A DNA stretch of 64,000 nt from Tubulanus polymorphus. Lineage: Eukaryota > Animalia > Nemertea. The position numbers were made by a program, and so were the translations under genes. Positions 1 to 17,028 of this stretch are shown here, one piece after another; the stretch's first letter is position 1, and every line of letters starts with the position of its first letter. The notes under the pieces are model-generated. The model was not told the DNA's origin, made no database searches, and saw nothing but the letters and a program-made list of their open reading frames with translations. The stretch covers positions 13,176,485 to 13,240,484 of the forward strand of contig NC_134027.1 of assembly GCF_964204645.1 (NCBI RefSeq), written 5' to 3'.

Positions 1-2
1 AA

Positions 3-227
3 ATTGATTATTATACTGGTAATAAATATGCATTATGGTTAGATTTTAGAACAACTGAAGATAACTTATTACATGGTTCTGGAAAAAAACTACAAAATAC
101 AAAAGATGGAATACAATTATTCATGAAAAAGAATAAAGGAATCAAAAATTTTAAAATGCACATTTATATTATATCTGACGCGCAATTAAATATTATAAAT
201 TCACAATTAGATAGTATTCAATATTAG
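3..227 (+). CDS. C-terminal part of putative major capsid protein
   Basis: Frame from nt 3 reads IDYYTGNKYALWLDFRTTEDNLLHGSGKK...HIYIISDAQLNI...QY*, nearly identical to the 3' end of the 21716-22962 gene. Confidence 0.65.
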   Translation: MDYYTGNKYALWLDFRTTEDNLLHGSGKKLQNTKDGIQLFMKKNKGIKNFKMHIYIISDAQLNIINSQLDSIQY

Positions 228-257: not shown

Positions 258-1385
258 ATGGGAGGTAAAAAATCTCCTAATACTAAAGAACAATATTTAA
301 GAAATTTATATTACAACCCTGAGAGTTCGGTTGCTTATTCTTCTACTAAAAATATATGGCGTAAAGTAAAACAAGATAAATTAGATAAGATAATCCCACA
401 AAATTTAGTTAAATATAAAGATATAAATGAATTTATGTTAGAACAACCAACGTATACAACACATAAAAAAATTGTTAGAAAATATAAAACTCGTAAAACT
501 ATGGTAAGTTATGTAGATCAACAGTGGCAAGGAGATTTAATTGATATGAAAAATGTTAAGAAAGATAATGATGATTATTGGTGGTTATTGAATATAATTG
601 ATATTTTTAGTCGTTATGTATGGAGCTTCCCACTTTATAGAAAAGATGCTGTACAAACATCAAATGTTTTAAGAAAATTTCTTTCGGATGATAAACTAAA
701 ACCAGAAAAAATACAATTTGATGATGGAAAAGAATTTGATAATTCACTTGTTCATGAACTCTTAGATAATCATAATATTAAATATTTTTCAACAAAATCA
801 GATAAAAAAGCAGCAGTTGTTGAACGATTTAATAGAACATTAAGAACAAGAATGTGGAAATATTTTACGGCAAATAATACTTTTAAATGGATTGATGTTT
901 TACCAAAATTGATAGAAGGATATAATAATTCTTATCATTCTTCTATTGGAATGAAACCTATTGATGCTAGAAAATCTGAAAATGCTGAAATTGTTTGGAA
1001 TAATTTATATGGAGCATTTCTTATAGATGATTTTGGTGAACCTAAATTTAAAGTTGGTCAAAATGTTAGAATTTCTAAGTATAAAAAGATATTTGATAAA
1101 GGATACGATCGAAATTTTACTAGAGAAATATATAAAATAAAAAAGGTAATAACAACAAAACCATATGTCTATAAATTAGAAGATTTAGATGGTGAAGAAG
1201 TTGATGGCTACTTTTACGAAGAAGAATTAAGTTTAACTACTGAAAATCTAGAACAAGAATATAAAATTGAAAAAGTATTAAAAACAAAAACTATTAAAAG
1301 AAAAAAATATTCTTTAGTAAAATGGGTTGGATGGCCAGATAAATTTAATGAATGGATATTATCAAGTAAAATTAAAAATATATAA
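258..1385 (+). CDS. Retroviral-like (rve/DDE) integrase with C-terminal chromodomain, Polinton type; intact
   Basis: WQGDLIDM, IDIFSRY, QFDDGKEF and VERFNRTL motifs; chromo-like LVKWVGWPDKFNEWI. Confidence 0.95.
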   Translation: MGGKKSPNTKEQYLRNLYYNPESSVAYSSTKNIWRKVKQDKLDKIIPQNLVKYKDINEFMLEQPTYTTHKKIVRKYKTRKTMVSYVDQQWQGDLIDMKNVKKDNDDYWWLLNIIDIFSRYVWSFPLYRKDAVQTSNVLRKFLSDDKLKPEKIQFDDGKEFDNSLVHELLDNHNIKYFSTKSDKKAAVVERFNRTLRTRMWKYFTANNTFKWIDVLPKLIEGYNNSYHSSIGMKPIDARKSENAEIVWNNLYGAFLIDDFGEPKFKVGQNVRISKYKKIFDKGYDRNFTREIYKIKKVITTKPYVYKLEDLDGEEVDGYFYEEELSLTTENLEQEYKIEKVLKTKTIKRKKYSLVKWVGWPDKFNEWILSSKIKNI

Positions 1386-1994
1386 ATGAATAAGGAATTA
1401 TTCATATTTGAGCCTCATAATATGTTAATTTCTGGTGTAACAAATTGTGGAAAAACGTATTTTATATTAAATTTATTAGAAACTGTTTACAAAAACTATT
1501 TTGATAATATAGTATTATTTTGTCCAACATATGAATTTAATCAAACTTATGATAGAAATATTACTAGGAATAATAAATTTATTATATTAGATCCTAAAAC
1601 AGTAAAAGAAAATTTAGATAATTGTATTAAAATAGCAATTGATATTTATAAAGGATCAAATACATTATTCATTATAGATGATTGTGCTAATCTACATGAT
1701 TCAAAAGTTAGAGAAAGTGAGTTATGCTATTTAGCTTTCTCTGGGAGACATTTTGGGATAACAACTTGGGTTTTAAATCAAAAATATAATTCAATTGTTA
1801 AAGACTTTAGAGAAAACATTAGATTTCTAGTTTTATTCTACAATAAAGATAGAAAATCAATGAAAAATGCACTTGAGGAAAATGATATTATTCCACATGA
1901 TTTACATAATGAATATATGGATGAGTTGAAAAATATTAAAAGATCAAAATTACTATTTAGATTACAACACCCATTTAAATATGAATTTATTTAA
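1386..1994 (+). CDS. A32/FtsK-like DNA packaging ATPase
   Basis: Walker A GVTNCGKT, Walker B LFIIDD, GRH and LNQ motifs. Confidence 0.9.
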   Translation: MNKELFIFEPHNMLISGVTNCGKTYFILNLLETVYKNYFDNIVLFCPTYEFNQTYDRNITRNNKFIILDPKTVKENLDNCIKIAIDIYKGSNTLFIIDDCANLHDSKVRESELCYLAFSGRHFGITTWVLNQKYNSIVKDFRENIRFLVLFYNKDRKSMKNALEENDIIPHDLHNEYMDELKNIKRSKLLFRLQHPFKYEFI

Positions 1995-3186: not shown

Positions 3187-3561
3187 TATTTTAGAAAAAA
3201 AGCAAAAAAAATAATTGAATATCTCACTACTTTTGTCTATCTATGCGGAGCAATTAAATTGTCCAGATAAGTCATTTCGGATTCTAGATATTCATTATTT
3301 TTATTAATTTATTTTGTTTTTATTTGAATATTTGAATTTGAATTTGTTAATCAATTAACATAGTAATTAATTACTAATTTAATTAAAAATTATATCATAA
3401 TTAAGTTAAAAATACATAATTCATTTATCAGTTTTCATTCTTACATTCTTTTCATTCGGAATAATTTATAATTTCAAATTTCACATATTTTTTTAGCACC
3501 AACAACATTTACTTAGGTGTTTTAGCTAAGTATATAAGGTAATTCATTCAACCACTGGAGT

Positions 3562-3850
3562 GCCGCCGGGCTTGGCTTGCAGGGGCATTTCGAAAATGCA
3601 CCTTTGTCCACCCTCCGTGGTTCTCCTTCAGTTTCGACTTTCGATCCTCCTTTCGGGGGTAAGGGGTTGATAGGAAATGCATTAGGCGCCTTTAATATAA
3701 TGTGTTTCCTGTCAACCATTGAAGGAGAATTGGTGAGGTGTGGGTCACAGGGGTGTAAGTAGAAATGCTTGGGGATAGGTATCTCGTGGCGCCTCTCAAT
3801 AACGGGATGCTTATCCCCTAAAAACTCTGCGAGTCAAGTCGGGTGGTTTT
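3562..3850 (+). ncRNA. Putative novel structured non-coding RNA (~285 nt)
   Basis: GC-rich island; hand-folded stems of 22, 20, 17 and 14 bp with many G-U pairs; two loops with GGCGCC; TATATAA at 3531 and TTTT at 3847. Confidence 0.75.
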
Positions 3851-4190
3851 GCTAAAACTTACCGTAAAAACATTGAAATATTCCTTTTAATCACGATAGA
3901 ATGATGACTATCCTCCTGTTGTCACGGTTGAGCTAATTTAAATAAACCTCGTTTTCAGCAACTAATGAAAACGTAGTAATTCAATACCAGCTAACTGGCT
4001 TGTGTGTGTTGTATGTACTGTGTGCTTATTATATAACAACAACGTTGTGCAACACCTGTTTGATTGATCAATATTCAAATGAAGCACTCTCTTACAATAA
4101 TATGTAACAGATGTACTGTATGATTATAGTTGTTTATAAAACGACTAAGGTCATTTTGGATTCTAGATATTCATTATTTTTATTTCTTAT

Positions 4191-4517
4191 TTAATCAACA
4201 ATTTCTAAATCATGATGACCGTCTTCATTTTTCCCATGATATATTATTTTAAATCCTACTAAATCTTTCAATTCCTCCATACTCAATGAAACCCATTTAT
4301 CGGGTAAAAGCACTTTAAATTCTCGTGATGTACTAACATTACAGTAGCTTAAATTAGCTGATACTTTCTCTCCATATTTAGTTTTTATCTTTTCTAATTT
4401 CAATATTTTATGTTCAATTTCTTTTGTAACATCAACTAACTTTTTTATTTCAAATTGTTTTTTTGCTGGTTTTATTCTGTTATTTATTGTTGCTAAGAAT
4501 GCTTTTCTATCCCCCAT
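4191..4517 (-). CDS. Small conserved viral protein (possible OB-fold ssDNA-binding protein)
   Basis: TKYGEKV...FKVLLPD...IIYHGKNEDGHHDLEI; homolog of 27301-27654, which lies downstream of pPolB; the SSB function is inference. Confidence 0.65.
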   Translation of the reverse strand: MGDRKAFLATINNRIKPAKKQFEIKKLVDVTKEIEHKILKLEKIKTKYGEKVSANLSYCNVSTSREFKVLLPDKWVSLSMEELKDLVGFKIIYHGKNEDGHHDLEIVD

Positions 4518-4627
4518 TTATAAGGAAAACAAATTACTTGTGGTGATGAGTGGGATTACTTCCCTTGTATATAACAAGCTCACAGCATCTATTTATCCAA
4601 GTACAGTTAACACACGCGCAGCTGTTG

Positions 4628-4831
4628 TTACGCGCACTCACTGTTTATGTGTGTCACAATTTTACTACGTAATATTTCTAAAATTTCAATTGTATCTTTT
4701 ATTTCTAGTGAATCAATATAATTTCTAACATTTTCCATGTAAGGTTTATCGATGTATTTTTTACAATATTGACAATAATATTGATTTTTATTGACATTAT
4801 TGTTTTCTAGTTGGTGTTCATTCTCCCCCAT
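4628..4831 (-). pseudogene. N-terminal remnant of pPolB
   Basis: YYCQYC...PYMENVRNYIDSL matches PYMEDVRNYINSL in 30968-31654 and the relic at ~36935. Confidence 0.75.
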
Positions 4832-5029
4832 TTATAAGGAAAAAAAATTACTTGTGGTGATGAGTGGTGTCTAGTACTCTCGTACTCTGGCCTGAAACCC
4901 CACTTTTCTAATTACTCTGGTTCTATGGAAATGTCTGCATCAATATTCAAGTACAAATTTACAAATTGAATCAAAACAAGAGATTGAACTTTAATTTCCA
5001 TTGGGAAAATCTTCATTTTTAGTATGTCA

Positions 5030-12375: not shown

Positions 12376-12489
12376 TTATTTAAGAGAAAAATTAAACAGT
12401 TTATAAAATATTTGCTAGTTTTTAATTAAATATTTTATAATCATTTTAAAAATATTAAACTTTTAAATGATTAAATCAAATAACAATTA

Positions 12490-13115
12490 AATTACAGCCA
12501 AACAATTTAACATTTCAACAGTCAAACAATTTATCATTTCAACTGTCAAAAAATTTATCATTTCAACTGTCAAACAATTTATCATTTCAACTGTCAAACA
12601 ATTTATCATTTCAACTGTCAAACAATTTATCATTTCAACTGTCGAACAATTTATCATTTCAACAGTCGAACAATTTATCATTTCAACTGTCAAGCAATTT
12701 ATCATTTCAACTGTCAAACAATTAATCATTTTAACTGTCAAACAATTTAACATTTCAACTGTCAAACAATTTATCATTTCAACTGTCTTATCATTTCAAC
12801 AGTCGAACAATTTATCATTTCAACAGTCAAACAATTTATCATTTCAACTGTCAAACAATTTATCATTTCAACTGTCAAACAATTTATCATTTTAACTGTC
12901 AAACAATTTATCATTTCGGCTGTCAAACAATTTATCATTTTAACTGTCAAACAATTTATCATTTCGGCTGTCAAACAATTTATCATTTCAACTGTCAAAC
13001 AATTTATCATTTCAACTGTCAAACAATTTATCATTTCAACGGTCAAGCAATTTAACATTTCAACAGTCAAACAATTTATCATTTCAACTGTCAAACAATT
13101 TATCATTTTAACAGT
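12490..13115. repeat. 24-bp minisatellite (CAACTGTCAAACAATTTATCATTT) x ~26
   Basis: Head-to-tail units without spacers. Confidence 0.95.
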
Positions 13116-13168
13116 CTATTAGATATTTAAATCATTTAACTCAATTCAATAATTATAATGTAGAATTG

Positions 13169-16637: not shown

Positions 16638-16713
16638 ATTATAACACTGAAGGTCTTTGTAATATAGATATCAAAATGTAATCTCGATTGTATATATCTG
16701 TTTTAATATTGTA

Positions 16714-17028
16714 TTGTTTACTGTTAACTAAGTATTGCGCAATAACCGGTCCGATTGAACCGCTTTTCTATTGTTCTCCATTGTTCTACTATTGATCGTT
16801 GTTAATGGCGGCGGTTGTTCTGTATTGATTGTTTACTGTTAACTGTGTATTGCGCAATAACCGGTCCGATTGGACCGCATTTCTATTGTTCTCCATTGTT
16901 CTACTATTGATCGTTGTTAATGGCGGCGGTTGTTCTGTATTGATTGTTTACTGTTAACTGTGTATTGCGCAATAACCGGTCCGATTGGACCGCATTTCTA
17001 TTGTTCTCCATTGTTCTACTATTGATCG
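16714..17028. repeat. 115-bp tandem repeat x ~2.7 with internal palindromes
   Basis: AATAACCGGT at 16741, 16856 and 16971; TATTGCGCAATA and CGGTCC-GATT-GGACCG in each unit. Confidence 0.9.

What the first reader, a model, noticed from the sequence alone, without database searches (positions are those of the whole stretch)
3531..3850. Candidate novel structured ncRNA with twin self-complementary GGCGCC loops inside a Polinton-like virus
Seen in sequence: a GC-rich island in very AT-rich viral DNA folds almost completely on the + strand. The closing stem 3563-3584/3825-3846 has 22 positions with 1 mismatch. Other stems: hairpin 3585-3599; 3600-3607/3747-3754; 3619-3632/3718-3731 (14 bp); hairpin 3646-3659; 3665-3684/3698-3717 (20 bp); a GAAA-tetraloop hairpin at 3757-3770; and 3771-3787/3802-3818 (17 bp). 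Nearly all deviations from Watson-Crick pairing are G-U wobbles, which argues for selection on RNA of this strand rather than a DNA inverted repeat. The two long hairpins have unrelated stems but share a loop motif (GGCGCCUUUAAUA and GGCGCCUCUCAAUA). TATATAA lies ~30 nt upstream and TTTT directly follows the closing stem, resembling a TATA-type Pol III unit. Known analogies: palindromic kissing loops (HIV-1 DIS), loop-loop multimerising phi29 pRNA, and Pol III VA RNAs of adenoviruses, which are Polinton relatives. Inference: a virus-encoded RNA that kisses intramolecularly or multimerises, acting in packaging or as an immune decoy. I do not recognise it as 7SL, 7SK, RNase P/MRP or a known ribozyme.
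Basis: partly seen in the sequence, partly recalled or inferred. Interest (0 to 1): 0.92.

Follow-up and report, generated by a model that had tools for sequence, protein, structure and literature searches.

The report
Twin sticky-loop RNA in Polinton virus
A virus-like Polinton element in an animal genome carries a 290-base stretch predicted to fold almost completely on one strand, with two matching self-complementary loops; it is likely a small non-coding RNA gene whose copies would stick to each other, it matches no catalogued RNA family, and neither its transcription nor any relative has been shown.

Summary
The structure is real. Window 3560-3850 folds at z -12.7 on the + strand and z -4.5 on the - strand. 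Its helix arms hold 19 G-T and 0 A-C oppositions. Two hairpins of 20 and 17 bp end in loops that start with GGCGCC and end in AATA. A TATA box lies 29 nt upstream, T4 follows the closing stem, and there is no T4 inside. Rfam finds nothing. The context is a broken animal Polinton with integrase, A32 ATPase and double-jelly-roll capsid. No homologue was found: 0 of 48 related metagenome loci, 0 of 126 motif hits in viral contigs. The closest relative has four genes at this site instead. Covariation could not be tested; nor could transcription, because the sequencing-run search gave no answer. Best reading: an accessory, probably Pol III, RNA whose loops pair between molecules, most likely a VA-like decoy for host dsRNA machinery. 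Fold and strand bias are shown; transcription, kissing and function are inferred.

The parts
3531..3537 (+). TATA-like box (TATATAA), 29 nt before the predicted +1 G
   Evidence: a TATA[AT]A[AT] lies 26-34 nt upstream of 2.2% of Polinton + strand positions
3560..3850 (+). predicted ~290-nt non-coding RNA (ends inferred from the fold, TATA spacing and T4)
3562..3584 (+). P1 closing stem, 5' strand; pairs with 3825-3847 (6 bp + G.G + 16 bp)
   Evidence: pair probability 0.98-0.99
3585..3591 (+).
   Evidence: -157.3 against -151.0 kcal/mol
3597..3632 (+). P3 long arm (11+4+4+15 bp) with 3718-3757
3634..3659 (+). two short hairpins (3634-3644, 3646-3659) of the four-way junction
   Evidence: probability 0.71 and 0.79
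3665..3717 (+). P4 hairpin, 20 bp; its 3' strand runs on into P3 without a gap
3685..3697 (+). loop 1, 13 nt: palindrome GGCGCC flush on the 5' stem strand, then 7 nt ending in AATA
3771..3818 (+). P5 hairpin, 17 bp, at the three-way junction (linkers 0, 2 and 6 nt)
3788..3801 (+). loop 2, 14 nt: GGCGCC flush on the 5' stem strand, then 8 nt ending in AATA
3847..3850 (+). T4 at the 3' end of P1, candidate Pol III terminator; seven T3 runs and no T4 inside the element
3271..3305 (.). 35-nt Polinton intergenic repeat, left of the RNA cassette; holds a minus-strand AATAAA
4150..4184 (.). second copy of the repeat (97% identical), right of the cassette
1..224 (+). 3' end of the major capsid gene (context)
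   Evidence: 71% identical to the C-terminus of the L004 protein, whose model matches PBCV-1, iridovirus and mavirus capsids, best E 2e-14
258..1385 (+). rve integrase with a weak chromodomain match (context)
1386..1994 (+). A32-type packaging ATPase (context)
4191..4517 (-). 108-aa ORF, predicted OB/SSB-like fold (context); also present in elements without the RNA
   Evidence: weak fold matches only, best E 0.016

Best explanation
Window 3560-3850 is likely an accessory gene of this Polinton for a ~290-nt non-coding RNA, probably made by host RNA polymerase III, whose two GGCGCC loops are predicted to base-pair with the same loops on other copies. The predicted fold is a long rod (P1-P2-P3-P4) with loop 1 at the tip, 61 bp from the three-way junction, and loop 2 on a 17-bp side arm. 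Each loop puts a 6-nt G-C palindrome directly on the 5' stem strand and leaves a 7-8-nt linker ending in AAUA, a layout that would let the linker cross the minor groove of a 6-bp loop-loop helix. Two identical sticky loops per molecule would give dimers, rings or chains. The most likely job, by analogy with adenovirus VA RNA, is to occupy host dsRNA sensors or RNAi enzymes. Shown: fold, strand bias, twin loops, context. Inferred: transcription, polymerase, kissing, its intermolecular form, decoy role.
For: Fold z -12.7 (+) against -4.5 (-). 19 G-T to 0 A-C, binomial p 4e-6; 19 of 22 non-WC oppositions are G-T against 25 of 72 in six DNA inverted repeats of the window, Fisher p 2e-5. The loops align at a score reached by 2 of 200000 random loop pairs. 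A stem of 9 bp or more with a flush GC-rich palindrome occurs 3 times in 452,694 nt scanned: these two loops and one AT-rich stem in L004. The free loops pair at -14.1 kcal/mol in all three combinations (a duplex energy, not a kissing energy). TATA spacing (2.2%), terminal T4 (6.6%) and no internal T4 (17%) multiply to about 2e-4 if independent, a post hoc figure. The P4 3' strand is flush with P3, and short linkers correlate with coaxial stacking (PMC3258123 passages), which would hold loop 1 far from loop 2. A loop-3/stem-1 minor-groove triplex is described for luteovirus pseudoknots (PMC5009743 passage). VA RNAs are Pol III products that inhibit PKR and load Dicer (PMC4378190 passages); a cnidarian RLR binds long dsRNA (PMC8476169 abstract).
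Against: One copy only: no covariation, no transcript data. No homologue in 48 related loci, 1 genome contigs locus, 126 motif hits in viral contigs, phages or plasmids. No PSE and no A/B box; a + strand AATAAA at 3941 allows a Pol II transcript. The sequence also folds as ssDNA (z -7.35). The G-T test uses arms picked from the + strand fold, and the DNA controls also lean to G-T (25 against 12 A-C). Cofolding gives a strand-swapped dimer 13.3 kcal/mol below two monomers, but loop-shuffled controls give 5.2-11.8 (8 shuffles), so this adds little. Arm lengths also fit an intramolecular kiss. Nothing here tests the decoy role, and the host's immune genes are unknown.
Confidence: 0.43

Rival explanations
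1. Same RNA gene, but the two loops kiss within one molecule: the four-way junction folds P4 back, closing a compact two-helix monomer that is a scaffold or nuclease-resistant decoy.
For: Lengths fit: 41 bp from the three-way to the four-way junction, against 20 + 6 + 17 bp for P4, the kiss and P5. Loop1-loop2 pairing is as strong as the self pairs.
Against: P4 is flush with P3. An internal kiss does not need a palindrome, let alone the same one twice. Three-way junction linkers of 0/2/6 nt would turn P5 towards P1 by the family-C rule (recalled from Lescoute and Westhof; not checked in a call).
Confidence: 0.2
2. The twin loops are two binding sites for one protein, or for another RNA; the palindrome is incidental.
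For: The loops share the AAUA tail as well as the hexamer; the stems share GATAGG.
Against: A fully G-C palindrome exposed twice would pair on its own. No complement longer than 9 nt to either loop lies elsewhere in the window. The neighbouring OB-like ORF also occurs in elements without the RNA.
Confidence: 0.12
3. A host non-coding RNA gene or a small non-autonomous mobile element that was captured by, or inserted into, a decaying Polinton.
For: Absent at the same site in L004 and from the second Polinton; GC far from the element's; the cassette sits between two 35-nt repeats; host-wide copy number could not be counted.
Against: Single copy in 64 kb. No tRNA, A/B box, A-tail or Rfam match. 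The flanking repeat is a Polinton motif found twice more in the second element. A 14-nt near-repeat around the unit is not significant (435 of 5000 shuffles). Unbroken helices suggest recent selection.
Confidence: 0.12
4. A DNA structure formed on the displaced single strand during protein-primed replication, or a packaging signal; never transcribed.
For: Folds as ssDNA, -62.5 kcal/mol, z -7.35; G-T is tolerated in DNA too (established knowledge); an OB-like gene is adjacent.
Against: Internal position between convergent genes. True DNA palindromes here fold symmetrically and carry many transversion mismatches. TATA and T4 sit at the ends of the fold. Not conserved in relatives.
Confidence: 0.08
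5. A phi29 pRNA-like ring that works with the A32 ATPase in genome packaging.
For: pRNA multimerises by intermolecular kissing (PMC4201828 abstract); the ATPase gene is 1.6 kb away.
Against: The closest relative (ATPase 82% identical) lacks it over 11.5 kb, as does the second element. pRNA uses two different complementary loops and a different motor family (recalled).
Confidence: 0.04
6. A small protein gene on the - strand (stop-free frame 3522-3833, 65 aa from its ATG), the fold being a by-product.
For: 103 stop-free codons; minus-strand AATAAA at 3305-3324.
Against: 171 of 3000 shuffles give a frame as long; no tblastn match in the related loci or elsewhere in the window; wobble bases do not favour third positions; no Pfam match; not in the protein collection.
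Confidence: 0.01

Closest known systems
Adenovirus VA RNA I/II and EBV EBERs (PMC4378190, passages)
   Same: Short, highly structured, U-ended non-coding RNAs of animal DNA viruses made by Pol III; adintoviruses are named for their likeness to adenoviruses (PMC8502044, section 3.1).
   Different: About 160 nt against 290; VA genes use internal A/B boxes (recalled), not found here; no twin palindromic loops in the passages read; no Rfam match.
Retroviral dimer initiation sites (HIV-1 DIS, recalled; MPMV palindromic stem-loop, abstract start)
   Same: A palindrome exposed in a hairpin loop; 6 nt and G-C-rich in DIS (recalled).
   Different: DIS is one loop inside a genomic RNA, with a short purine flank on both sides (recalled). 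Here there are two loops in a stand-alone unit, with the palindrome flush on the 5' side and a 7-8-nt 3' linker.
phi29 pRNA (PMC4201828, abstract)
   Same: Viral RNA with a three-way junction and loop-loop self-association.
   Different: This element is accessory.
OLE, ROOL, GOLLD and ARRPOF homo-oligomers (PMC12286853, PMC12990946, passages)
   Same: Orphan RNAs, several from bacterial mobile DNA, that assemble through kissing loops, some palindromic (GGCC in OLE L9.3).
   Different: Bacterial or phage; no Rfam match here. The word 'eukaryot' does not occur in the 2026 review's main text.

Membership tests
Any Rfam 15 family (7SL/SRP, 7SK, RNase P/MRP, VA, EBER, ribozymes, OLE/ROOL/GOLLD) | covariance-model match | tested here: not met
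   E<=10 scans gave only weak unrelated hits, best inside the element E 3; no gathering-level hit in the window
7SK snRNA | M1/M3/M8 core with a repeated GAUC stem (PMC8406779 passages) | tested here: not met
   one GATC only, in a 4-bp junction hairpin; no Rfam hit
Type 3 Pol III gene | TATA box about 25-30 nt upstream | tested here: met
   TATATAA 3531-3537, 29 nt before G3560; background 2.2%
Type 3 Pol III gene | proximal sequence element upstream of the TATA box | tested here: inconclusive
   6 of 12 positions of the human consensus (PMC5493778), background level; the host's own PSE is unknown
Type 3 Pol III gene | T4 or longer terminator at the 3' end, none inside | tested here: met
   T4 at 3847-3850; seven T3, no internal T4; 17% of shuffles lack T4
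Type 3 Pol III gene | discrete Pol III transcript | not testable with these tools
   no sequencing runs were obtained
VA RNA / tRNA-derived SINE (type 2 promoter) | internal A and B boxes or tRNA head | tested here: not met
   no match to recalled A/B patterns; ARAGORN 0 genes
Kissing-loop dimer element (DIS-like) | exposed self-complementary hexamer in a hairpin loop | tested here: met
   two loops, at least 91% unpaired
Kissing-loop dimer element (DIS-like) | dimer formation; palindrome kept by covariation | not testable with these tools
   no homologue found; needs bench work
phi29-type pRNA | conserved, essential partner of the packaging ATPase | tested here: not met
   absent from L004 (11.5 kb of an incomplete element) and from the second Polinton
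Polinton/adintovirus (the surrounding element) | rve integrase, FtsK/A32 ATPase, double-jelly-roll capsid | tested here: met
Polinton/adintovirus (the surrounding element) | protein-primed PolB, protease and terminal inverted repeats | tested here: inconclusive
   PolB found only in the second element of the window; this copy is cut by the window edge and broken on its right; protease not searched

The most novel reading that the evidence does not exclude
Animal Polinton viruses carry an undescribed class of Pol III RNA that self-assembles through twin palindromic loops into rings or filaments: a eukaryotic counterpart of the bacterial RNA-only assemblies, used to soak up host dsRNA sensors.
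Probability: 0.25. Interest if true: 0.88.

Novelty: new variant of a known kind. Interest (0 to 1): 0.62.

Why it matters
Polintons are related to adenoviruses, yet my searches found no report of a Polinton non-coding RNA gene (the one paper holding both 'polinton' and 'structured RNA' uses the latter for another element; the adintovirus paper has no 'noncoding' or 'hairpin'). The library lacks most subscription journals. A real transcript would give this lineage a VA-like RNA and a marker of active infection. Two identical palindromic loops make a sharp, cheap prediction: 290 nt of RNA that multimerises in a tube. Natural RNA oligomers are rare (PMC12990946).

Tried and rejected
Own-genome search: no genome held. 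Sequencing runs: no answer, so no expression or copy data. Viral contigs by protein: ATPase alone, ATPase alignment and capsid alignment found no relative. Viral contigs by motif: five scans gave 3, 24, 36, 31 and 32 loci (some contigs recur); 3 of 126 have one stem of 8-9 bp flush to GGCGCC, none has two; the three are tandem repeats. Metagenome scan: 48 Polinton loci, 162 kb, mostly 1-4 kb fragments; no BLAST or nhmmer match to the element, only to its flanks in L004; a folding scan showed no counterpart. Phage and plasmid blastn: none. Earlier findings by sequence and place: none. PSE upstream, a PSE-like 9/12 site downstream and a target-site duplication: all background level. Internal duplication of the two hairpins: suggestive only. 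tRNA-end or primer-site reading of loop 2: loop 1 lacks the preceding T, rejected. Hammerhead: no CUGANGA core on either strand (read; motif recalled). Protein atlas for the neighbouring ORF did not complete. No supplements were read.

Full report
Observation. Window 3560-3850 is 50% GC inside DNA of 23-25% GC. The + strand (3555-3855) folds at -158.9 kcal/mol, z -12.69, better than 100 of 100 shuffles; the - strand gives -93.2, z -4.48. Two do not: hairpin 3585-3599 and the GAAA hairpin 3757-3770 are displaced by a 7-bp helix 3585-3591/3762-3768.

RNA or DNA palindrome. Aligning each arm with its partner without any wobble bonus gives 81 Watson-Crick, 19 G-T, 2 G-G, 1 C-T and 0 A-C oppositions (binomial p 4e-6). 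Six DNA inverted repeats of the same window give 25 G-T and 12 A-C among 72 non-WC oppositions (Fisher p 2e-5). The arms were chosen from the + strand fold, which favours this result somewhat. It points to selection on one single strand but does not separate RNA from ssDNA, which also folds (z -7.35). A stop-free frame of 103 codons on the - strand is matched by 171 of 3000 shuffles and has no homologue or Pfam match.

The loops. Both long hairpins end in a loop that begins with GGCGCC directly on the 5' stem strand and ends in AATA. Random loop pairs reach this similarity 2 times in 200000; both loops are at least 91% unpaired; the free loops pair at -14.1 kcal/mol in every combination. A scan of the window and 48 related loci for long stems with a flush GC-rich palindrome returned these two loops and one AT-rich stem in L004. 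The stems share GATAGG, but their similarity is not significant (7% and 17% of shuffles), so an internal duplication is possible and unproven.

Transcription signals. TATATAA lies 29 nt before G3560, T4 closes the fold, and the body has seven T3 runs and no T4, whereas the - strand would carry T4 and T5. Backgrounds are 2.2%, 6.6% and 17%; the product, about 2e-4, is post hoc. Against a type 3 promoter: the expected PSE position matches 6 of 12 positions of the human consensus taken from PMC5493778, which is background. No A or B box was found with recalled patterns. A + strand AATAAA at 3941 leaves Pol II open. No transcript data were obtained.

Context. The element lies between convergent genes of a Polinton: capsid end (1-224), integrase, A32 ATPase and two unknown ORFs on +, then an OB-like ORF on -. 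This copy is broken on its right and cut by the window edge on its left. A second Polinton at about 11-31.7 kb holds PolB fragments and no copy of the element. Named relatives of a neighbouring retrotransposon protein come from anemone, coral, bivalve, ribbon worm, sea slug and one fish, at 59% identity or less, so the host is an animal, probably a marine invertebrate. The closest relative, L004 (ATPase 82%), shares both flanks (window 3203-3302 and 4174-4499) but has four genes between them and no GC island in 11.5 kb. The 844-nt cassette with the RNA lies between two copies of a 35-nt Polinton repeat that occurs twice more in the second element. The RNA is therefore accessory.

Homologues. 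None found. The 48 metagenome loci (162 kb, most under 4 kb) are a thin sample: only L004 spans the site. Five motif scans of viral contigs gave 126 loci, none with two flush stems; three protein scans found no member of this Polinton family there. Phage and plasmid searches were empty. Animal genome assemblies, where copies should be, could not be searched, so absence here says little.

Mechanism. Inferred throughout. P4 continues P3 without a gap on its 3' strand, which favours a straight rod with loop 1 61 bp from the three-way junction and loop 2 on a 17-bp arm (stacking rule in PMC3258123 passages). Loops held apart, each with the same palindrome, would pair between molecules. A 5'-flush 6-bp segment followed by a 7-8-nt linker ending in AAUA resembles a pseudoknot stem 1 with its minor-groove loop 3 (PMC5009743 passage; the comparison is mine). 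The lengths also allow an internal kiss if the four-way junction folds back (41 bp against 43). Cofolding adds little (13.3 kcal/mol gain against 5.2-11.8 for 8 loop-shuffled controls, and as a strand swap). For function I commit to a VA-like decoy: a 22-bp terminal stem with a U tail and long helices suit Dicer and dsRNA sensors (VA biology in PMC4378190 passages; cnidarian RLR in PMC8476169 abstract). I put a + strand RNA gene at about 0.8, Pol III given RNA at 0.7, loop kissing given RNA at 0.7, and the decoy role at no more than 0.3.

Comparison and novelty. No Rfam family; not 7SK by the motifs in PMC8406779 passages. It works most like VA RNA in gene type and like DIS, pRNA (PMC4201828 abstract) or OLE/ROOL/GOLLD (PMC12286853 and PMC12990946 passages) in its loops, and belongs to none of them. 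I read section 3.1 and passages of PMC8502044 and passages of PMC6431247; other papers were seen only as search listings. Two earlier notes of this scan describe analogues that I did not test: a jumbo-phage RNA ending in twin self-complementary loops, and tRNA-derived Pol III cassettes joined to a folded RNA in another Maverick.

Verdict. A real, unusual, single-copy structured element; probably an undescribed viral RNA; covariation, expression and function open. Interest 0.62.

Noticed in passing
L043:2050-2310, - strand: AT-rich multi-hairpin fold with a long closing stem at the end of a related Polinton contig; z -4.6 against -1.8 on the other strand; no GGCGCC, no Rfam hit. Possibly a second, different structured element.
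   Followed up: partly
L018:3080-3260: Duplicated GC-rich unit of small hairpins with 3-nt loops after the ATPase gene; looks like a branched DNA hairpin of the parvovirus-end type (likeness recalled).
   Followed up: no
window 4510-4553 and 4824-4867: 44-nt direct repeat (98%) holding the start context of two minus-strand frames; with the 35-nt repeat it suggests cassette-like gene ends in this Polinton.
   Followed up: partly
window 4018-4035 and 4568-4585: 18-nt inverted repeat (89%) around a TATATA motif; the left copy has no ORF next to it.
   Followed up: no
window 10612-32069: Second, rearranged Polinton with frameshifted genes, a 592-bp 99% inverted repeat (10642-11233/13613-14204) and candidate terminal repeats at 10612-10730/31949-32067.
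   Followed up: partly
window 12487-13116 and 16707-17028: Tandem arrays inside the second Polinton: a 24-nt unit giving a repetitive reading frame, and a 115-nt unit in about three copies.
   Followed up: no
L004:10340-10981 (-) and L004:2541-2975 (+): The closest relative carries a deoxynucleoside kinase (Pfam dNK, E 2e-31) and a weak SLATT-like membrane protein.
   Followed up: partly
L004, L007, L008, L024 and window: Gene order differs between close relatives although the proteins are 70-83% identical in the closest ones.
   Followed up: partly
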